Shown here in pieces: positions 29,022 through 36,681 of a DNA stretch of 64,000 bases. Position 1 is the first letter of the stretch, and the number at the start of each line of letters is the position of its first letter. The position numbers were made by a program, and so were the translations under genes. The notes beneath the pieces are model-generated. The model had not been told where the DNA came from, made no database searches, and was given only the letters and a program-made list of their open reading frames with translations. Source of the stretch: Chloroflexota bacterium (GTDB taxonomy: Bacteria > Chloroflexota > Limnocylindria > Limnocylindrales > CSP1-4); NCBI GenBank assembly GCA_003171065.1, contig PMXQ01000080.1, positions 7,948 through 71,947 of the forward strand, given 5' to 3'.

Positions 29022-30376
29022 GCGGCCGCCTCCTGGTGGTCACCTACTTCTTTCCGCCTGTCGGCGGCGTGGGCGTGCAGCGGACCCTGAAATACGTCAC
29101 GTACCTGCCGCGCTGGGGTTGGGAGCCGGTAGTGATCGCCCCAGGAGATCCCGCGTTCCCGGTCCGCGACCCCTCGCTCGTCCCCACTCTCGCGCCGGGT
29201 CTCGAGGTCCACCGAACCGCCAGCCTGGAGCCGGGCCGTCTGCCGACCGCGGCCGCCCGCCTGCTGAGCCGCCGATCCGGTTCGGCCGGAGCGGTGTCGG
29301 CGGACCTGACGGCAAGCTCGGCCCAGGGCAGCCTGCCTCTCAAGGTGCTGCGCAAGATCTCGGTCGTCTGGAATCGGATCTGGGCGGTGCTGCTCTTTCC
29401 GGAGGGTGCGATCGCCTGGGTTCCCTTCGCCGTGCGAGCCGGACGCAAGGCCCATCGGCGCCGCCCGGTCGACGTCATATATTCGAGCTCGTCGCCAATC
29501 TCCACGCACGTGGCGGCCGGCCTCATCAAGCGCTCCACTGGCCTCCCGTGGGTGGCCGACTTCCGCGACCCGTGGGTTGGCAATCCCTTCGCCGCCCCGC
29601 TTTCACGTCCCAAGCGATGGATGCAGCGCCGCATGGAGCGCTGGATTGTGGCGCGCGCGGATCGGGTCATCGTGGCCGTCGACGCGATGCGGGTCCAGTT
29701 CGCCGGGCGCTATCCGGACATGGCCGACAAGTTCGTGCACATTCCGAACGGCTACGACCGCGCGGATCTGGTCGGCATCGAGCCGGCGCCGCCTCCGACG
29801 CCCGGAGGCTTCCACCTTCTGTACGCGGGCAGCCTGTACCGGCCCAGGGAGCTCGAGGCGTTCCTGCTCGGGGTCGAGCGACTGCTCGCGCGGAGGCCTG
29901 ATCTCCGAGCGCGCCTGAAGGTCGATTTCATCGGCCGGGTCAACGACCCCAACGCGAAGGCGGCCGCCGAGTTCGACAAGCCGGGACGGCTGGCTGGGGT
30001 CGTCGGCTTCGAGGGGTTCATGCCGAGGCCCAGGGCCCTGGCCCGGATGGCCGGGGCCGACGCGCTGCTGCAGCTGATGCCGGACATGCCCGGCGCGGAG
30101 ATCTTCGTCGGCGGCAAGTTGAGCGAGTACCTGGCCTTCGACCGGCCGATCCTGGCGGTCATGCCGCGCGGCGAGGGGCGGGCGCTGGTCGAGGGACTGC
30201 CGACCGGGATCACCGCGGACGTGGAGCCGGGCAGCGTCGCGGATGCGTTGGAGCGGCTGCTGGACCACACGCCCGCTCCGGCCCCGGCCGATCCGGCGGG
30301 TCGCTTCGATCGCGTCAATCTGGCGGGTGAGCTGGCGCGCGAGCTCGATCGAGTGACCGCGGGCGCGGCGCTCTGA
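29018..30376 (+). CDS. Glycosyltransferase (GT-B, GT4-like)
   Basis: The GTG start overlaps the flippase stop (GTGA). The N-terminus is LLVVTYFFPPVGGVGVQRTLKYVTYLPRWGWEPVVIAP. Confidence 0.7.
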   Translation: MSGRLLVVTYFFPPVGGVGVQRTLKYVTYLPRWGWEPVVIAPGDPAFPVRDPSLVPTLAPGLEVHRTASLEPGRLPTAAARLLSRRSGSAGAVSADLTASSAQGSLPLKVLRKISVVWNRIWAVLLFPEGAIAWVPFAVRAGRKAHRRRPVDVIYSSSSPISTHVAAGLIKRSTGLPWVADFRDPWVGNPFAAPLSRPKRWMQRRMERWIVARADRVIVAVDAMRVQFAGRYPDMADKFVHIPNGYDRADLVGIEPAPPPTPGGFHLLYAGSLYRPRELEAFLLGVERLLARRPDLRARLKVDFIGRVNDPNAKAAAEFDKPGRLAGVVGFEGFMPRPRALARMAGADALLQLMPDMPGAEIFVGGKLSEYLAFDRPILAVMPRGEGRALVEGLPTGITADVEPGSVADALERLLDHTPAPAPADPAGRFDRVNLAGELARELDRVTAGAAL

Positions 30377-30418
30377 CCCGTTCGACCGCGTCCGAGCCTG
30401 TCGCCCGACTGCCGCGCC

Positions 30419-31702
30419 TCAAAACGCGACGAACGAGGTAACCAGCAGCACCGCCGAGAGCACCACGAGCAGGGCCGTACCGGCCCAGCCGATCGCCGAC
30501 AGGAAGCGCCCGCTCACGAGCGGCCCCATCAGCTGACGATCCGACGCCAGGCGCATGACGAAGACCAGGACGAACGGCAGCAGCAGGCAGTTGACCACCT
30601 GGGCCGTGAACATCACCTGAACGAGCATGCGCGCCGGTACGAGCAAGATGAAGACGGCGGCGAACGCGACGAAGAAGATCATCAGGCCGTAAAAGGCGGG
30701 TGCCTCGCGCAGGCGCCAGTCCACCCCTGTCTCCCAGCCGAACGCTTCGCAGGTGGCGTAGGCACTGGTTAGCGGTACGACGCCGAGGCCCAGGAACGAC
30801 GCAGCGAGCAGTCCCACGGCGAACAGCACCTCTGCGCCCGAGCCGGCCAGCGGCTTGAGCGCGCCCGCGATCTGTGAGACGGCATCCGGAGAAGTGGTGT
30901 CGATCTGGATTCCCGCGGAGTACACGGCCGCGGCGCAGGCAACGACGATGAAGGCCGCGATCAGGTTCGTGAGGAACGCGCCCAGTCCCACGTCCAGCCG
31001 CTCGCCGAGGAGATCCTCGGCACCGAGGCGCTTGTCGGCGACATAGGACTGGATGAAGGCCTGGCCCCAGGGCGTGATCGTAGTTCCGACCGTGGCCACG
31101 ACCGTGACCCAGTAAGCGGGCGAGGAAGCGAGGTCTGGAATGACCAGCGAGCGCGCGGCGTGGCCCCAATCGGGGTGCGCAAGGACCGCGGAGATGAAAT
31201 AGGCGAGGGAGACGCCGATCCCCACCACCACGAACAGATACTGGACGCGGCGGTACGAGCCCCGGGTCAGAAGCAGCACGACGACAGTTGCGGCGAGCAG
31301 CGCGCTCATCCAGGTCGGTACGCCGAAAAGCCCCAGGGCCGCGCCGCAGCCGGCGAACTCGGCCACGATGGAGCCGATGTTTGCCACCAGCATGGCGCTG
31401 ATCATGAAAGCGGCCCAGCGCACTCCGAAGCGCTCGCGGACGAGCCCTGCCAGGCCCTGACCGGTCGCAAGTCCGAGCCGCGCGCCGACTTCCTGCGTGA
31501 AGAAGAGCACGATCTGGCTCGCCAGCAGCACCCACAGCAGCTCGTAGCCGTACTTTGCGCCGGCCACCGAGTAGGTGGAAATGCCGCCCGCGTCGTTGTC
31601 GGCGAAGCCGCTAACGAGCCCCGGGCCCAGGACGCCGAGGATCGCGGCCAGGCGGACGCGATTGACCGCGCGAGGGGTGAGAGACAGGACGGGGCCCCTC
31701 AC
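30419..31702 (-). CDS. Nramp-related transporter with NRMT-type (Mg2+-type) binding-site substitutions
   Basis: Nramp architecture, but TM1 reads GFADNDAGGISTY where DPGN is canonical. TM6 reads VGTTITPWGQAF where MPH is canonical. That gives Asn->Gly and Met->Thr at the metal site. The start overlaps the upstream stop (GTGA). Confidence 0.8.
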   Translation of the reverse strand: MRGPVLSLTPRAVNRVRLAAILGVLGPGLVSGFADNDAGGISTYSVAGAKYGYELLWVLLASQIVLFFTQEVGARLGLATGQGLAGLVRERFGVRWAAFMISAMLVANIGSIVAEFAGCGAALGLFGVPTWMSALLAATVVVLLLTRGSYRRVQYLFVVVGIGVSLAYFISAVLAHPDWGHAARSLVIPDLASSPAYWVTVVATVGTTITPWGQAFIQSYVADKRLGAEDLLGERLDVGLGAFLTNLIAAFIVVACAAAVYSAGIQIDTTSPDAVSQIAGALKPLAGSGAEVLFAVGLLAASFLGLGVVPLTSAYATCEAFGWETGVDWRLREAPAFYGLMIFFVAFAAVFILLVPARMLVQVMFTAQVVNCLLLPFVLVFVMRLASDRQLMGPLVSGRFLSAIGWAGTALLVVLSAVLLVTSFVAF

Positions 31703-32976
31703 CGGTCCGGGGTTCCGGAGGTGCGACCGAAGATGCGCGGCATCCTGATCTTCGCCGGATGCGGTAGCAGCGTGTCGATGGCGTCGTCGACGGTGACGAT
31801 CCCCTCCAGGCGGCCGTCGGCGTCCACCACCGGCACCGCCAGCAGGTTGTAGCGGGCCACGACGTCGGTGACCTCCTCCTCGCTGGCATCGGTGTGGACC
31901 GCCACCGGCTCGTCGTACATGAAGGTGGAGATGCGGGCGTTCGGCTTCGCGACGATCAGGTCCCGCAGGGACAGGACGCCGACGAGCTTGGCGTCATCGT
32001 CCGTGACATACACGTAGTAGATCGTCTCGGCGTTGGGCTCGAGCTCGCGCAGGCGGTCGATCGTCTCGGCCGCGGTCAGGCTGGCCGGCACGGCCACGAA
32101 TTCAGTCGTCATGATGCCGCCGGCCGTGTCCTCGGCGTAGGTCATGAGTTCCTGGACTTCCGCCGCCTCCTCCTTCTCCATGAGGCCCAGGATCTCCTCG
32201 CGGCTCTCCTCCGAGAGGTCCGCCACCAGGTCCGCGGCTTCGTCCGGATCCATCTCCTCGAGGATGTCGGCCGCGCGGGCGGGCTCGAGATCTTCCAGGA
32301 TGTCGACCTGGGTCTCGGGTTCCATCTCGCCGATCGCGTCCGCCGCCGCCTCGTCGTCGAGAGAGGTGATGACGCCGACGCGGTCGCTGCGGCTGAGCTG
32401 GTCGATGATCGTCGCCAGGTCCGCCGGGTGGAGCTCGGCCAGGCCTTTGTGGGGGACGCGCAGCTTCACGCTGGCGATCGTCCGTTCCACCGGATCGACG
32501 TCCTCCCAGTCGATGTACCGCTCCGGAACCTCGCGGCGCAGACCGTGGGCGAGAGTCCGCCAGGGCCCCTCGATGCCGAGCCGGCGAAGCAAGCCGGAGG
32601 CGCCTACGTCCACGGCGACCAGATGCAGCGCGCCTTCGACCTCATCGAGTCGGAGGTCGTTGACGCGGACCACCTTGCGGCCGTCGATGTCGACGATCTG
32701 GCGGTCCATCAGGTCCCGCTTGAGGCGGATCTCGTTGGGCCGCTGGTGGAACTTGCTGATGTCGATCGCGGTCGTCCGCAGCGTAGCGCCGCCCGCGTCC
32801 AGGGACGCTACCGACTGCCAGTGAAGGAAGATCTCCCGGCCATTGGTCCTGACGACGATGCCGGTCACGGGTGGATACCGATCGCCGATGGCGACGATCA
32901 GGTCGGCAACGGTTCCGATCGGCTCGCCCAGCCCGTCGCGCACGGGCCGGCCGATCGCCTGGCTCAGATAGAGCAT
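31699..32976 (-). CDS. Soluble MgtE-like regulatory protein: PRC-barrel-like N-terminus, MgtE N-domain and CBS pair, with no membrane domain
   Basis: DDEAAADAIGEMEPETQVDILEDLEPARAADILEEMDPDEAADLVADL is the acidic MgtE_N helical repeat, followed by CBS-like TTEFVAVPASL...LLAVPVVDADGRLEGIVTVDDAID. The ORF ends without any TM segment. Confidence 0.8.
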   Translation of the reverse strand: MLYLSQAIGRPVRDGLGEPIGTVADLIVAIGDRYPPVTGIVVRTNGREIFLHWQSVASLDAGGATLRTTAIDISKFHQRPNEIRLKRDLMDRQIVDIDGRKVVRVNDLRLDEVEGALHLVAVDVGASGLLRRLGIEGPWRTLAHGLRREVPERYIDWEDVDPVERTIASVKLRVPHKGLAELHPADLATIIDQLSRSDRVGVITSLDDEAAADAIGEMEPETQVDILEDLEPARAADILEEMDPDEAADLVADLSEESREEILGLMEKEEAAEVQELMTYAEDTAGGIMTTEFVAVPASLTAAETIDRLRELEPNAETIYYVYVTDDDAKLVGVLSLRDLIVAKPNARISTFMYDEPVAVHTDASEEEVTDVVARYNLLAVPVVDADGRLEGIVTVDDAIDTLLPHPAKIRMPRIFGRTSGTPDR

Positions 32977-33054
32977 GTGCCACCTCGACGGCGGGTCCGG
33001 CCCGCCTGTGGGTGGCGCGCGCCGCGGTGGCGCGAACCGCTTAGGGGGCGAAAC

Positions 33055-33180
33055 GGACCAGAGAGCTGATGTCGGCGCCCCGGGCGCCGCAGGTACTGGG
33101 TCCGGTCTCCACTGAGGGAGAGATCCTCCGAAAGCGTGTTGGGGCTGGCCGGGAGGCGCAGTAGCGTGCCCCTCCGACCA
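33055..33180 (-). ncRNA. Candidate M-box (ykoK-type Mg2+) riboswitch aptamer in the leader of the MgtE-N/NRMT operon
   Basis: The minus-strand RNA starts GGUCGGAGGGGCACGCUACUGCGCC, compared with M-box GUUAGGUGAGGCU...ACGCUGCUGCCC. It has an internal CCAACA and ends GACAUCAGCUCUCUGGUCC, compared with ...AAAGCUCUAC. The two ends can form a P1 helix of about 10 bp. Downstream, CCACC boxes could pair with the GAGGUGG Shine-Dalgarno. The comparison is by hand against the B. subtilis sequence as I remember it. Confidence 0.45.
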
Positions 33181-33260
33181 CAGGGGAGTTTAGTCCCGGG
33201 CGTGGGCGAGGGTCAACGCTGCCGAAGAACGCGGCGCCCGGAGTGAGAACGTAAGTACGA

Positions 33261-34760
33261 TTGCCGCCACGCGGGAGGTACCCGCACCATGTGGGGGTGC
33301 GAAACGTCCGTTTGCGGCATCCTTTCAACGCGAGCACGTGGTTTCGCTCTCACGGCGATGGCAGTTCGCCCCGGCTCGGCGAGCGGTCGATCACGCTCAC
33401 CTGGACGCTGCTTTCGATCGCAATCGCGCTCCTTCTTGGACAGGTCGTGGTCGGATTCCTGGTGGGTCGAAACAGCATCGCCGATCTCGCCCTGGCAATC
33501 GCGACTGCGCTGCTCGTGGCCTCGGCCGTCTTGAATGCCCGGGCTTCGGGCATTCTTGTGGAGAGGCGCCACTCCGAGGCCGAGAGCTTCGGCCGGCTGC
33601 TCCAGGCTCTGTCGCGGTCCGTGTCGCCGAACGCGGTCATCGAGGCCATCGTCCACGAGCTCGGCTCCGCGACTCGGGCGGACCACGTGGCTGTGGTGCA
33701 GAAGCGACGCGGCGGCACCGTCCTGGACGTGAGCTTCGTCTCGATGCTGGCCGGATCGCCGGCCTCGAACACCGCCATGCCCATTCGGCAGATGGAGCCC
33801 GTCGAGACGCGACGGTTGCGCACCGCGCCGCGGCCGGCGAGCGGTTCGGCGCTCGTCGCCGACGGATCGCGGCGTGGGAACGAAGGGCCGGACGACGCGT
33901 CGGCGAGTGGGCGCTCTCCGCACTGGCAGTCCCAGGCCGAGCGGCGCGATCCGACCGACGACGGCCTCCGGCGACGCGGCTGGCGGCCGCCGGAGTTCAT
34001 CGCTGCAGTCCAGGAGGACGGAGGGAACGCCCGCGACGTGGCCAACCAGATCGCCCACCAGTTGCGAGACGCCTACGGTCTTCGAAACACTCTGGCCGCA
34101 CCTCTTCTGGACGGCGAATCGATCGTGGGGGCGATCGTCCTGTCGCGCCGCACCAGCGAGCCCTGGACGGACGCCTCGGTCCGGCTGCTGAATAGCGCGG
34201 CCGGCGAGACCACGGCGGCGCTGGCACGGGTCTACTCGCAGCAAGCTGCCGAGGCGGAAGCGCGCACCGACCAGCTGACGCAGCTGCCGAACCGGCGCTA
34301 CTTCGACGAGTACTGCACCCTCGTGGCCAGCCGCCTGCGGGCGTCCGACCGGGTCGGGATCCTGGCCGTCGACGTCGACCATTTCAAGCGCGTCAACGAC
34401 ATGTACGGGCACCAGATCGGCGACCAGGTCCTTCGGGCGATCGGAGACGCAATCCAGATGTCGGTCCGCGAGGAGGATCTGCCGGCCCGCTATGGCGGCG
34501 AGGAATTCATGGTCCTGCTGTGGAACCCGAGCCCCGGCGTGGCGCTGGAGATCGGCGAGCGGATACGCACCACGGTGCGGGAGCTGGACCTCGTGGACGC
34601 GGGCGTGACGGATCGCGTCACCGTGTCGCTCGGAGTGGCGTCCGGGCTCGCTGCCGATGAGCCCATCTCGGAGATCGTGGAGCGGGCGGATCGGGCGCTG
34701 TACGCGGCCAAGCGCACGGGCCGCGACCGGGTCGTGGAGGCCTGGCCTTCGGAGGGGTGA
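33261..34760 (+). CDS. Membrane-anchored GAF-GGDEF diguanylate cyclase
   Basis: Two N-terminal TM segments and a GAF-like middle region. The GGDEF domain has VDVDHFKRVNDMYGHQIGDQVL and an RYGGEEFMVLL active site. The exact start is uncertain. Confidence 0.85.
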   Translation: MPPRGRYPHHVGVRNVRLRHPFNASTWFRSHGDGSSPRLGERSITLTWTLLSIAIALLLGQVVVGFLVGRNSIADLALAIATALLVASAVLNARASGILVERRHSEAESFGRLLQALSRSVSPNAVIEAIVHELGSATRADHVAVVQKRRGGTVLDVSFVSMLAGSPASNTAMPIRQMEPVETRRLRTAPRPASGSALVADGSRRGNEGPDDASASGRSPHWQSQAERRDPTDDGLRRRGWRPPEFIAAVQEDGGNARDVANQIAHQLRDAYGLRNTLAAPLLDGESIVGAIVLSRRTSEPWTDASVRLLNSAAGETTAALARVYSQQAAEAEARTDQLTQLPNRRYFDEYCTLVASRLRASDRVGILAVDVDHFKRVNDMYGHQIGDQVLRAIGDAIQMSVREEDLPARYGGEEFMVLLWNPSPGVALEIGERIRTTVRELDLVDAGVTDRVTVSLGVASGLAADEPISEIVERADRALYAAKRTGRDRVVEAWPSEG

Positions 34761-34788
34761 TCCGGCCCGCCGGGGCTACCATTCGGGC

Positions 34789-36681
34789 GTGGATCCTTCG
34801 CCCTCAGTCGAGCCTTCGCCCTCAGTCGAGCCTTCGCCCTCAGTCGAGCCTTCGCGGGCAGCCCTATCGAACGCCGAGCTGGCACGTGTCTTCCACGAGA
34901 TCGGAGACATGCTCGAGGTCAAGGGCGAGCTCGTCTTCAAGACCGTGGCCTACCACAGGGCCGCCGACGCGATCGCCCACTCGCCCGTGGAGGTTTCGCG
35001 CGCCTACCTGGACGGCCGGCCGCCGCGGATCCCGGGCGTCGGCGAGGCGATCGCGAAGAAGATCGAAGAGCTGGCCCGAACCGGCCGGCTGGCCTTCTAC
35101 GAGAAGCTGCGCGAGGAGGTGCCGCCGAGCCTGGTGGCGCTGCTGGAGATCCCCGGCGTCGGGCCTCGGACCGTGAAGCAACTCCACGAAGAGCTGGGCG
35201 TCGAAACCCTGGAGGATCTCCGGCGGGCGGCGGAAGCGGGCGCTTTGCGGTCCCTGAAGGGGATGTCTCAGAGGACGGAGGAGCAGGTCCTGGCCGGCAT
35301 CGCGGCCCTGGAGACGCGCCAGGAGCGGATGCGTCTGGGCGGGGCCGAGGCGTTCCTGGAGACGCTGCTGGCCGAGCTCAGGGACGTGCCGGGTGTGCGA
35401 TCGCTGCAGCCGGCCGGCTCGTTCAGGCGCCGCCGCGAGACGATCGGGGACCTCGACCTGCTGGCGGAGACGGACCGCCCGCTCGACCTGGTCGAACGCT
35501 TCACCTCGCTCGGATCGATCGAGTCGGTGTTGGCGAAGGGGCCTCACAAGGCAGCTGTGCGTCTGCTGCGCGGGCCCCAGGTGGACTTGATGATCATGCC
35601 GCCCGGGGAGGCGGGCACGTACCTCATCCACTTCACGGGGTCCAAGGAGCACAACGTCCGGCTGCGCGGGATGGCTCGCGACCGCGGCTGGAGCCTTTCG
35701 GAGAAGGGCTACCTGAGGCTCGACGAAGAGGGTGAGCCGGCGGTGGGGCCGGCCGGCGAGGCGGCCGAGCTTCGAACCTTTGCGACGGAAGTCGAGGCGT
35801 ACGGTTTCCTCGGCCTGCCGTTCATCGAGCCCGAGCTGCGCGAGGACCGGGGCGAAATCGAGGCCGCTCTGGCGGGGACGCTGCCCGTGCTGGTTGCGCA
35901 GGCCGATCTGCGCGGCGATTGCCACAGCCACTCCGACTGGTCCGACGGGGTGCACGCGATCGAACAGATGGCGCTGGAGGCGCGGCGCCGCGGGTACTCC
36001 TACCTGGCCCTGACCGACCACACGGTCAGCCTGGCGATCGCCCGCGGCCTGAACCTCGAGCGGGTGGAGCGGCAGCGGCGGATTGTGGCCGCTCTCAACG
36101 AGCGGTTCGCCCGCGAGGAATCCGAAGGAACGGCTCCCCCCGAAACCTCGGCCGAGGGCTTCCGGCTGCTGCACGGCTGCGAGCTCGAGGTCCGCGCCGA
36201 CGCCACGCTCGACTATCCGGACGAGCTGCTGGCTCGTTACGACCTGGTCGTCGCCTCGGTCCACGTCGCCCGGCGCCAGACGCGCGAACAGCTGACCGCC
36301 CGAACCCTGGCCGCGATCCGGAACCCCAACGTCGACATCATCGCCCACCCGGCCGGGCGCTACATCGGCAGTCGCGACGACCTCGATCTCGACTGGGATG
36401 CCGTCTTCGCAGAGGCGGCCCGGACCGGCACAGCCCTGGAGCTGAACGGCTCGGACGAACGGCTCGACCTCTCGGACGTGCGGGCCCGCCGAGCCTCCGA
36501 GTTCGGCTGCGTCTTCACGATCGACTCGGACGCCCACCGGACCGAGGAGCTCGACAACGTCCGCTGGGGCACCGCCATGGCCCGCCGCGCCTGGCTCGGC
36601 CCCGACCCGGTGATGAACACCCGCTCCCGAGCAGCGCTCATGGAATGGGTGGCAGCGAAGCCGGGGCGGCTGCAGCCATGA
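34789..36681 (+). CDS. polX: Family X DNA polymerase with C-terminal PHP domain (PolX)
   Basis: LSNAELARVFHEIGDMLEVKGELVFKTVAYHRAADAI (HhH/8-kDa domain), a pol-beta-like core, and the PHP motif DLRGDCHSHSDWSDG. The start is tentatively GTG 34789, after the upstream stop at 34760. A start downstream of the repeat is also possible. Confidence 0.85.
   Translation: MDPSPSVEPSPSVEPSPSVEPSRAALSNAELARVFHEIGDMLEVKGELVFKTVAYHRAADAIAHSPVEVSRAYLDGRPPRIPGVGEAIAKKIEELARTGRLAFYEKLREEVPPSLVALLEIPGVGPRTVKQLHEELGVETLEDLRRAAEAGALRSLKGMSQRTEEQVLAGIAALETRQERMRLGGAEAFLETLLAELRDVPGVRSLQPAGSFRRRRETIGDLDLLAETDRPLDLVERFTSLGSIESVLAKGPHKAAVRLLRGPQVDLMIMPPGEAGTYLIHFTGSKEHNVRLRGMARDRGWSLSEKGYLRLDEEGEPAVGPAGEAAELRTFATEVEAYGFLGLPFIEPELREDRGEIEAALAGTLPVLVAQADLRGDCHSHSDWSDGVHAIEQMALEARRRGYSYLALTDHTVSLAIARGLNLERVERQRRIVAALNERFAREESEGTAPPETSAEGFRLLHGCELEVRADATLDYPDELLARYDLVVASVHVARRQTREQLTARTLAAIRNPNVDIIAHPAGRYIGSRDDLDLDWDAVFAEAARTGTALELNGSDERLDLSDVRARRASEFGCVFTIDSDAHRTEELDNVRWGTAMARRAWLGPDPVMNTRSRAALMEWVAAKPGRLQP
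34796..34856 (+). repeat. 18-bp perfect tandem repeat, 3 copies plus a partial one (CCTTCGCCCTCAGTCGAG)
   Basis: Read directly from the sequence. It is in frame with the PolX ORF and encodes (PSPSVE)x3. Confidence 0.95.

What the first reader, a model, noticed from the sequence alone, without database searches (positions are those of the whole stretch)
30419..32976. Split Mg2+ transport module: soluble MgtE cytoplasmic domain translationally coupled to an NRMT-type Nramp
The upstream gene encodes only the cytoplasmic part of MgtE (acidic N-domain helices plus a CBS pair, preceded by a PRC-barrel-like segment) and has no membrane domain. Its stop overlaps (GTGA) the start of an Nramp-fold transporter. 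In that transporter the metal-site residues are changed from DPGN to DAGG and from MPH to TPW. As I recall, Asn->Gly and Met->Thr are the substitutions that define the Nramp-related magnesium transporters (C. acetobutylicum NrmT, E. lenta NRMT). In MgtE the N/CBS domains are the Mg2+ gate sensor. Here that sensor appears to be supplied in trans to a different transporter fold, which would be a modular swap of a regulatory domain between transporter superfamilies.
Basis: partly seen in the sequence, partly recalled or inferred. Interest (0 to 1): 0.65.

Follow-up and report, generated by a model that had tools for sequence, protein, structure and literature searches.

The report
MgtE-sensor plus NRMT magnesium transporter operon
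This is a two-gene operon for an Nramp-related magnesium transporter and a soluble copy of the MgtE channel's cytoplasmic magnesium sensor; the pairing was published in 2014, but here it sits behind a conserved structured leader with a small upstream ORF that matches no Rfam family.

Summary
ORF A (31699-32976, minus strand, 425 aa) has a PRC barrel, an MgtE_N domain and a CBS pair, and no membrane segment. Its TGA overlaps the only usable GTG start of ORF B (30419-31702), an SLC11 protein of the NRMT clade. ORF B scores 314 bits against EleNRMT and about 105 against DraNramp, and carries DxxG, TxxT and the helix-10 Gln.

Shin et al. 2014 (PMC4072509) reported that most nrmT genes follow a gene for the MgtE cytoplasmic domain and proposed feedback regulation. 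The one pair they tested showed no effect of the fragment.

What I add:
- 67 of 74 species-level loci keep the pair.
- The MgtE Mg4, Mg6 and Mg7 site residues are kept. The acidic plug helix is replaced by a basic tail.
- Relatives with a canonical MgtE pore mostly stand alone; forms without one sit next to NRMT.
- An M-box precedes 7 of 35 such operons in other phyla.
- In Limnocylindrales the operon instead has a roughly 210-nt leader with covarying helices, a helix that can sequester the Shine-Dalgarno sequence, and a conserved 22-33-codon uORF. It matches no Rfam family.

Substrate and regulation remain inferred.

The parts
33187..33216 (-). Promoter-like site: TTGACC, 18 nt, TAAACT
   Evidence: Consensus scan found 1 site against 0.2 expected. 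Both hexamers are conserved in related Limnocylindrales loci.
32977..33186 (-). Conserved structured 5' leader of about 210 nt, with no Rfam match
   Evidence: Covariance model R1 hits only upstream of ORF A homologues. 89% of cells are paired against 35-49% in slid controls. 34 of 53 pairs show compensatory changes against 11-17 in slid controls. No Rfam family at E<=1.
33041..33112 (-). Upstream small ORF (GTG start, 23 codons, VETGPSTCGARGADISSLVRFAP) inside the leader; GGAGG lies 12 nt upstream
   Evidence: Present in 47 of 47 full-length leaders, at 22-33 codons. The stop codon alternates TAA/TAG/TGA at a conserved place. In codons 2, 4, 5 and 6 variation is mainly at the third position.
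32979..33016 (-). Helix GCCACC (33016-33011) with GGTGGC (32984-32979). It can sequester the Shine-Dalgarno sequence of ORF A and encloses a small hairpin.
   Evidence: 97% of cells are paired in 41 metagenome sequences, with one compensatory case.
31699..32976 (-). ORF A: soluble PRC / PRC-like / MgtE_N / CBS-pair protein with a basic C-terminal tail. PRC 32782-32973; second PRC-like barrel about 32482-32742; MgtE_N 32128-32433; CBS pair 31768-32115; tail 31702-31767.
   Evidence: Pfam and NCBIfam scans. Matches the TtMgtE cytosolic domain at E 2.9e-49. AF2 model pLDDT 88.7; its C-terminal 230 residues superpose on 2YVY with TM 0.86 and rmsd 1.9 A. dN/dS 0.09-0.12.
31699..31702 (-). GTGA: the stop of ORF A overlaps the start of ORF B
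30419..31702 (-). ORF B: NRMT-clade SLC11 transporter. NDAGG at 31583-31597, GTTITPW at 31067-31087, Gln368 at 30599-30601.
   Evidence: dN/dS 0.15-0.18.

Best explanation
This is a two-gene operon of a peat Candidatus Limnocylindrales (Chloroflexota) bacterium.

ORF B is an Nramp-related magnesium transporter (NRMT clade of SLC11). By analogy with EleNRMT it probably imports Mg2+, and probably also Mn2+, without proton coupling.

ORF A is the cytoplasmic sensor part of an MgtE channel (N domain plus CBS pair) behind two PRC-type barrels. It has no pore.

The most likely mechanism has three steps.
1. ORF A binds cytoplasmic Mg2+ at the acidic sites between its N and CBS domains, as MgtE does, and closes.
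2. It passes that state on to the NRMT made from the same mRNA.
3. Uptake falls when cytoplasmic Mg2+ is sufficient.

Shown here: the domain identities, the NRMT signature, conservation of the pairing and of the Mg4, Mg6 and Mg7 residues, and purifying selection.

Inferred: the substrate, any physical contact, and the direction of regulation.

Expression is probably controlled by the structured leader, which holds a small translated ORF and a helix that can sequester the ORF A ribosome-binding site. In other phyla an M-box magnesium riboswitch occupies that position.
For: Transporter identity: ORF B scores 314 bits against EleNRMT and about 105 against DraNramp. D37/G40, T207/T210 and Q368 match the published DxxG-TxxA/T signature and EleNRMT Q379.

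Sensor identity: ORF A residues 173-404 align with TtMgtE 19-253 at E 2.9e-49. The model superposes on the Mg2+-bound cytosolic domain.

Mg2+ site residues, mapped from PMC5882242 onto 43 diverse family members:
- Mg4 D91/D247 corresponds to D245/D398 (42/43 and 43/43).
- Mg6 D95 corresponds to D249 (43/43).
- Mg7 E59 corresponds to D213 (D or E in 41/43).

Pairing: 67 of 74 loci from Chloroflexota, Acidobacteriota, Eggerthellaceae, Nitrospirota, Firmicutes and others have an NRMT gene directly downstream on the same strand. All aligned downstream transporters (those of normal length) carry G at the N-to-G position and T at the T224 position.

Complementary distribution: 6 of 7 full-length PRC-MgtE proteins with a canonical MgtE pore are not next to NRMT. 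All forms checked that lack a canonical pore but keep a membrane segment are next to NRMT: 3 of 3 with a divergent 5-TM domain and 5 of 5 with one TM helix.

Link to magnesium: an M-box riboswitch lies directly upstream of the sensor gene in 7 of 35 scanned loci. One of these, L034, has a transporter with the same NDAGG/GTTITPW residues.

Both genes are under purifying selection.

Shin et al. 2014 showed Mg2+ uptake by two C. acetobutylicum NrmT proteins and reported the same gene pairing.
Against: - No transport or binding data exist for this pair.
- In the only pair tested experimentally (A. capsulatum, also without an M-box), the transporter rescued Mn2+ uptake well and Mg2+ uptake poorly. 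Co-expressing the MgtE fragment changed nothing (PMC4072509).
- EleNRMT works in vitro without any partner (PMC8806188).
- The MgtE plug-helix sites Mg2 and Mg3, which couple sensing to the MgtE pore, are absent. The Mg5 residue D226 is Asn here. Two ATP-contact residues differ: F227 is Leu and N203 is Tyr.
- I found no natural sensor-Nramp fusion among the best 150 cluster representatives.
- Seven loci have the sensor gene with no NRMT within 4 kb.
- No complex was modelled.
Confidence: 0.6

Rival explanations
1. The pair is mainly a manganese (or broader transition-metal) importer. ORF A senses Mn2+ or another signal rather than Mg2+, as Shin et al. suggested for the A. capsulatum pair.
For: The A. 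capsulatum NrmT also has an MgtE-fragment neighbour and no M-box. It rescued a Mn2+ transport mutant fully and a Mg2+ mutant only at millimolar Mg2+. EleNRMT transports Mn2+ as well as Mg2+. The window has no M-box.
Against: The binding site is the NRMT type, with the Thr that EleNRMT needs for Mg2+. An M-box-controlled relative (L034) has identical site residues. The conserved acidic residues in ORF A are those of the MgtE Mg2+ sites. I could not obtain the A. capsulatum sequence, so I do not know which motif variant it carries.
Confidence: 0.2
2. ORF A does not gate the transporter. It is co-expressed as a cytoplasmic Mg2+ or nucleotide sensor, buffer or chaperone that acts on other targets, or on the operon's own leader.
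For: Co-expression had no effect in the one tested pair. Seven loci have the sensor with no NRMT nearby. ORF A is more strongly conserved than ORF B: dN/dS 0.09-0.12 against 0.15-0.18. The tandem PRC barrels have no known role in MgtE.
Against: The pairing is very tight and often translationally coupled. Pore-less forms sit next to NRMT and canonical-pore forms mostly do not. Eggerthellaceae and Coriobacteriales versions carry membrane anchors, which places them at the membrane.
Confidence: 0.15
3. ORF A is a decaying remnant of an mgtE gene, or an assembly or frameshift artefact.
For: It looks like a truncated MgtE and scores below the TIGR00400 cut-off.
Against: - Thousands of homologues at 86-94% identity have the same length.
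- More than 100 soluble cluster representatives at 50% identity exist.
- dN/dS is about 0.1.
- The structure prediction is confident.
- The same architecture occurs in independent assemblies.
Confidence: 0.01

Closest known systems
mgtE-fragment/nrmT operons of Shin et al. 2014 (C. acetobutylicum Ca_c0685 and Ca_c3329; A. capsulatum Acp2976/Acp2977), PMC4072509
   Same: A gene for the MgtE cytoplasmic domain sits immediately upstream of an Nramp-related transporter in one operon. The proposed role is feedback regulation.
   Different: The clostridial operons are M-box controlled, and in Ca_c0685 the fragment is split into two genes. Here there is no M-box but a different leader with a uORF. 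The paper calls the fragment a small protein and does not mention PRC barrels. I could not compare sequences directly.
EleNRMT (Eggerthella lenta), PDB 7QIA/7QIC/7QJI/7QJJ, PMC8806188
   Same: 42% identity over the whole protein. Same NDAGG motif, same Thr at T224 and same Gln at Q379. His of the MPH motif is replaced by Trp. Eggerthellaceae relatives up to 88% identical to EleNRMT also have a PRC-MgtE_N-CBS gene upstream.
   Different: The second alpha-6 position is Thr here and Ala in EleNRMT. The Eggerthellaceae partner ends in an acidic segment and one TM helix, not a basic tail. EleNRMT was studied without a partner.
Thermus thermophilus MgtE cytosolic domain, PDB 2YVY/2YVX
   Same: N domain plus CBS pair, 43% identity, TM 0.86, rmsd 1.9 A. 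Mg4, Mg6 and Mg7 acidic residues are kept.
   Different: No plug helix with the Mg2 and Mg3 sites and no 5-TM pore. About 175 extra N-terminal residues form tandem PRC-type barrels. ATP contacts F227 and N203 are changed.
M-box riboswitch (RF00380); also the Salmonella mgtA leader with the mgtL leader peptide (the latter from my own knowledge)
   Same: A cis-acting leader in front of a magnesium-transport operon. The M-box occupies the same position in 7 of 35 related operons. mgtL is a precedent for a short translated ORF in a magnesium-transporter leader.
   Different: No sequence or structure match to any Rfam family. The ligand or signal is unknown. The uORF peptide (M-E/D-x-G-P-S ... V-R-P-A) is unrelated to mgtL.

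Membership tests
NRMT clade of SLC11/NRAMP | Nramp (PF01566) fold, closer to characterised NRMT than to classical NRAMP | tested here: met
   PF01566 E 2e-86. EleNRMT 314 bits against DraNramp about 105 and ScaDMT about 68. 42% against 29% identity.
NRMT clade of SLC11/NRAMP | DxxG on helix 1 in place of DxxN | tested here: met
   N36-D37-A38-G39-G40 aligns with EleNRMT N-D55-A-G-G58.
NRMT clade of SLC11/NRAMP | TxxA/T on helix 6 in place of AxxM | tested here: met
   G-T207-T-I-T210-P-W aligns with EleNRMT G-T224-T-I-A227-P-W (signature from PMC8806188).
NRMT clade of SLC11/NRAMP | Conserved Gln on helix 10 (EleNRMT Q379) | tested here: met
   TAQ368VVN aligns with TAQ379FVN.
NRMT clade of SLC11/NRAMP | Mg2+ transport, not coupled to protons | not testable with these tools
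   Needs a liposome or complementation assay. The only sequence hint is that His of MPH is Trp.
NRMT clade of SLC11/NRAMP | M-box riboswitch upstream (an identifying aid in Shin et al., not a strict criterion) | tested here: not met
   No Rfam hit at E<=1 in 29500-35000 and none at gathering score in the whole window.
Classical Mn/Fe NRAMP (MntH) | DPGN and A-x-x-M-P-H metal-site motifs | tested here: not met
   DAGG and T-x-x-T-P-W. The NCBIfam MntH model scores 133 bits against a cut-off of 430.
MgtE Mg2+ channel (TIGR00400) | N domain plus CBS pair | tested here: met
MgtE Mg2+ channel (TIGR00400) | Five-helix transmembrane pore (PF01769) and plug helix | tested here: not met
   No PF01769 hit and no hydrophobic segment. 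199 bits against a cut-off of 232.75, matching profile positions 25-251 only. The tail is basic, not acidic.
NrmT-associated MgtE-like fragment (Shin et al. 2014) | Homologous to the MgtE cytoplasmic domain only, and encoded immediately upstream of nrmT in the same operon | tested here: met
M-box riboswitch (RF00380), for the leader | Match to the covariance model | tested here: not met
   No hit in the window or in 10 further leader-bearing loci at E<=1. The same scan method finds M-boxes at 117-151 bits in other phyla.

The most novel reading that the evidence does not exclude
Two linked readings go beyond the 2014 description.

(1) The soluble PRC-MgtE_N-CBS protein is a true regulatory subunit of NRMT. 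It arose from a PRC-type MgtE channel encoded next to nrmT by stepwise loss of its pore: canonical 5-TM, then divergent 5-TM, then a single TM anchor, then a basic tail. On this reading one magnesium-sensing module serves two unrelated transporter folds.

(2) In Limnocylindrales the operon is controlled by a previously undescribed leader. It combines a conserved translated uORF with covarying RNA helices and a helix that can sequester the Shine-Dalgarno sequence. It functionally replaces the M-box as a magnesium-responsive (or related) switch.
Probability: 0.35. Interest if true: 0.65.

Novelty: new member of a known kind. Interest (0 to 1): 0.4.

Why it matters
The role of the MgtE-like fragment next to nrmT has been open since 2014. 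The only experiment on it was negative.

The comparative data here give concrete handles on that question:
- the Mg4, Mg6 and Mg7 site residues to mutate;
- a conserved basic tail to delete;
- natural membrane-anchored versions in the EleNRMT lineage, where a structure of the transporter already exists.

If the sensor does gate NRMT, one regulatory domain would control two unrelated transporter folds.

The leader with its uORF is a separate lead. It is a candidate new cis-regulatory element for a magnesium transport operon in an abundant, uncultured soil and peat lineage.

Tried and rejected
- RNA-seq support for co-transcription: only DNA runs from peat, soil and sediment metagenomes hold the sequence, so nothing could be laid.
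- Complex prediction: no multimer tool is available, and the single-chain tool returns no inter-domain error. I therefore did not submit an artificial A-linker-B fusion.
- C-terminal tail against pairing: the basic tail is present in paired and orphan sensors alike, so it does not discriminate.
- Natural sensor-Nramp fusions: none among the best 150 representatives. The long forms are MgtE-type or carry an unrecognised 5-TM domain.
- The 5-TM domain of the Coriobacteriales forms has no detectable sequence similarity to solved MgtE pores. Its nature is unresolved.
- RNAalifold on the plain MAFFT alignment of all 17 leaders found only two helices, because the variable hairpins were misaligned. 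A model built from the close clade was needed.
- Leader helix CGGACC/GGUCCG never covaries. It is broken by a synonymous GGA-to-GGT change in one clade. Its conservation is better explained by the uORF codons (Gly-Pro and Val-Arg) than by pairing.
- The NJ tree of sensor domains is crude and has no support values. A few canonical-pore forms nest among soluble ones, so the direction and number of pore losses are not settled.
- I could not retrieve the A. capsulatum or C. acetobutylicum sequences for direct comparison.
Full report
**1. The observation**

Two ORFs lie head to tail on the minus strand.

ORF A is 31699..32976 (425 aa).
- Pfam finds a PRC barrel (residues 2-65, E 8.9e-9), MgtE_N (182-283, E 9e-28) and two CBS domains.
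- A second segment, residues 79-178, matches PRC weakly (E 0.002, below the cut-off).
- NCBIfam's mgtE equivalog matches only profile positions 25-251 of 450, at 199 bits against a cut-off of 232.75.
- The protein has no hydrophobic stretch and is strongly acidic: 83 D+E against 44 K+R.

ORF B is 30419..31702 (427 aa). It is a full-length Nramp-fold protein (PF01566, E 2e-86).

The stop of A (TGA, 31701-31699) overlaps the GTG of B (31702-31700).
- That GTG is the only in-frame start in the first 45 codons of B.
- The overlap is kept as GTGA or ATGA in close relatives.

The flanking genes are divergent (a GAF-GGDEF protein) and convergent (a glycosyltransferase). The unit is therefore a two-gene operon.

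**2. The transporter**

Against all PDB sequences, ORF B matches EleNRMT (7QIA) at E 1.3e-92 and 314 bits. It matches DraNramp at about 105 bits and ScaDMT at about 68.

The published NRMT signature is DxxG on helix 1 and TxxA/T on helix 6, in place of DxxN and AxxM (PMC8806188).
- ORF B has N-D37-A-G-G40 and G-T207-T-I-T210-P-W. EleNRMT has N-D55-A-G-G58 and G-T224-T-I-A227-P-W.
- The helix-10 Gln (Q379 in EleNRMT) is Q368 here.
However, the Mg2+-ligating Thr is the Ala-to-Thr change.

**3. The soluble protein**

- Residues 173-404 align with the T. thermophilus MgtE cytosolic domain at E 2.9e-49.
- An AlphaFold2 model built on 43 diverse homologues has mean pLDDT 88.7.
- Its C-terminal 230 residues superpose on the Mg2+-bound MgtE cytosolic domain 2YVY with TM 0.86 and rmsd 1.9 A.

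I mapped the MgtE Mg2+ site residues (PMC5882242) onto the alignment of 43 family members.

| MgtE site | MgtE residue(s) | ORF A residue(s) | Conservation in family |
|---|---|---|---|
| Mg4 | D91 / D247 | D245 / D398 | 42/43 and 43/43 |
| Mg6 | D95 | D249 | 43/43 |
| Mg7 | E59 | D213 | D or E in 41/43 |
| Mg5 | D226 / D250 | N377 / D401 | half kept |
| Mg2, Mg3 | E258, D259 (plug helix) | no counterpart | absent |

- After the CBS pair the family has a short basic tail, with consensus LPxxWKKRLPRxF.
- ATP contacts (PMC5529423) are partly kept. Y170, R187 and D188 are kept. N203 is Tyr and F227 is Leu.
- dN/dS against close relatives is 0.09-0.12 for A and 0.15-0.18 for B. A is a working gene, not a remnant.

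**4. Is the pairing conserved, and is it known?**

It is known. Shin et al. 2014 (PMC4072509) made these points:
- Most nrmT genes have a neighbouring gene for the MgtE N-terminal cytoplasmic domain.
- They speculated that it gives cytoplasmic feedback regulation or acts as a metal chaperone.
- For A. capsulatum, which has no M-box, the transporter rescued Mn2+ uptake well and Mg2+ uptake only at millimolar Mg2+.
- Co-expression of the fragment changed nothing.

No later paper in the searchable library treats the fragment. None holds both 'MgtE' and 'PRC-barrel'.

My survey:
- A search of 1.84 billion cluster representatives gave 14001 hits at E-value up to 0.001.
- The best 150 almost all align over the whole of ORF A, including the PRC region. 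About 115 are soluble proteins of 400-470 aa. About 25 are 585-750 aa with a C-terminal multi-helix membrane domain.
- In one-genome-per-species contigs, 80 loci were fetched. They come from Chloroflexota, Acidobacteriota, Eggerthellaceae, Nitrospirota, Deltaproteobacteria, Firmicutes, Eremiobacterota, Saccharimonadales and one Methanobacteriaceae bin.
- 67 of 74 evaluable loci have an NRMT-type gene directly downstream on the same strand. About 17 have a start available with a 4-nt overlap.
- All aligned downstream transporters (those of normal length) have G at the Asn-to-Gly position and T at the T224 position. The second helix-6 position is A, T or S.
- Transporters up to 88% identical to EleNRMT have such a neighbour.
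- Seven loci have the sensor gene beside unrelated genes.

**5. Evidence on whether the sensor works with NRMT**

Full-length PRC-MgtE proteins with a canonical Pfam MgtE pore mostly stand alone.
- P0139, P0158, P0165, P0179, P0214 and P0215 have no NRMT neighbour.
- P0144 does have one.

Forms without a canonical pore sit next to NRMT.
- Coriobacteriales proteins with an unrecognised 5-TM domain: 3 of 3.
- Eggerthellaceae proteins with an acidic plug-like segment and one TM helix: 5 of 5.
- The soluble forms, as counted above.

This complementary distribution is what one expects if the cytoplasmic module always needs a membrane partner, either its own pore or NRMT. It is comparative evidence, not proof.

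A crude NJ tree places the multi-TM forms as a basal grade. That fits an origin by pore loss. The tree has no support values, and a few canonical forms nest among the soluble ones.

An M-box riboswitch lies directly upstream of the sensor gene in 7 of 35 scanned loci of other phyla. One of these, L034 (Thermoleophilia), has a transporter with the same NDAGG/GTTITPW residues as the window. It is among the window's closest relatives outside its own order. This ties the module, and this motif variant, to magnesium.

**6. The leader (outside the given coordinates)**

The window has no M-box and no other Rfam family. It does have a promoter-like site, TTGACC-18-TAAACT at 33216-33187. Both the site and the roughly 210-nt leader behind it are conserved in Limnocylindrales loci.
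- A 29-nt block is invariant in the close clade, although dS of the adjacent genes is 0.5-0.9.
- A covariance model built from eight leaders hit only upstream of ORF A homologues. It found the window and 14 genome loci, plus three marginal fragments (E 0.24-0.87, one of them in the window) elsewhere in 757 kb.
- A pattern scan of metagenome contigs that contained no coding sequence gave 80 loci. 41 of them matched the model, and all 41 matches are followed by an ORF A homologue.
- On those 41 independent sequences, 89% of cells pair against 35-49% with slid partners. 34 of 53 pairs show compensatory changes against 11-17 with slid partners. The caveat is that the alignment is fitted to the model.
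- The last helix pairs GCCACC (33016-33011) with the Shine-Dalgarno GGTGGC (32984-32979).

The leader also holds a small ORF at 33112..33041 (VETGPSTCGARGADISSLVRFAP).
- 47 of 47 full-length leaders have it, with a GTG start.
- GGAGG or GAGG lies 11-14 nt (mostly 12-13) upstream.
- Length is 22-33 codons.
- The stop alternates TAA, TAG and TGA at one conserved place.
- The N-terminus is M-E/D-x-G-P-S, and variation in codons 2, 4, 5 and 6 is mainly at the third position.
- One 'helix' that never covaries is better explained by these codons.

I read this as a leader-peptide plus RNA-structure control element. Its signal is unknown. Magnesium is the obvious candidate because of the genes it controls and the M-box found at this position elsewhere. 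That is inference only.

**7. Verdict**

The locus is a new member of a known kind.

Identity of both proteins is firm. Substrate (Mg2+, with Mn2+ likely too) and in-trans gating are inferred, and the one published test of gating was negative.

What is new here:
- the conservation of the MgtE sensor sites, with loss of the plug helix;
- the complementary distribution of pore-bearing and pore-less forms;
- the membrane-anchored forms in the EleNRMT lineage;
- the uORF-containing leader.

Noticed in passing
window 32977-33216 (minus strand); also L001, L005-L014, L017-L019, L021 and 41 metagenome loci (L097-L171): A conserved promoter plus a roughly 210-nt structured leader with a conserved 22-33-codon uORF (window 33112..33041) and a helix that can sequester the Shine-Dalgarno sequence. 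It is found only upstream of the sensor gene in Limnocylindrales-type contigs. It matches no Rfam family. Other phyla have an M-box at this position.
   Followed up: yes
L047:4001-5353, L055:4001-5350, L056:2221-3582, L060:2337-3698, L061:4001-5362: In Eggerthellaceae, the lineage of the structurally solved EleNRMT, the PRC-MgtE_N-CBS partner ends in an acidic plug-like segment and a single hydrophobic helix. It is probably membrane-anchored next to the transporter.
   Followed up: partly
L059:56-1921, L070:3938-5848, L087:792-2657 (P0185); also P0192, P0206, P0208, P0237, P0248, P0261: Sensor proteins of 605-750 aa carry a C-terminal domain of about five TM helices that Pfam MgtE does not recognise. 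For L059, phmmer found no similarity to solved MgtE pores. All three with known context sit directly upstream of an NRMT gene.
   Followed up: partly
L086:611-3389 (P0144): A full-length PRC-MgtE with a canonical MgtE pore domain is followed 17 nt later by an NRMT gene that is 47% identical to the window's. It may be an intermediate arrangement.
   Followed up: partly
L022, L040, L049, L050, L054, L074, L083: Seven 'orphan' sensor genes have no NRMT within 4 kb. Their neighbours are unrelated (prolyl-tRNA synthetase, ABC permease, YceD, SMC, UbiE). They keep the basic tail.
   Followed up: partly
window 31699-32976 versus 30419-31702: The accessory protein is more conserved than the transporter. 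Against L005 it is 91% identical and the transporter 81%. dN/dS is 0.09-0.12 against 0.15-0.18.
   Followed up: partly
L043:5265-7414, L080:5262-7803, L038:1300-5263: Some loci have two NRMT paralogues in tandem after one sensor gene (L043, L080, both M-box controlled). L038 has two sensor genes flanking one NRMT.
   Followed up: no
L020 (Methanobacteriaceae bin), L023 (Saccharimonadales bin): The sensor-NRMT pair also occurs in an archaeal bin and in a candidate-phyla-radiation bin. This suggests horizontal spread, unless the contigs are mis-binned.
   Followed up: no
window 34795-34855: A perfect 18-bp tandem repeat (3.4 copies) encodes PSVEPS repeats near the start of a PolX/PHP-type gene (34657..36681).
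   Followed up: no
window 33261-34760 (plus strand): A GAF-GGDEF diguanylate cyclase gene is divergently transcribed from the operon's promoter region. The synteny is kept in close relatives (L001-L004).
   Followed up: no
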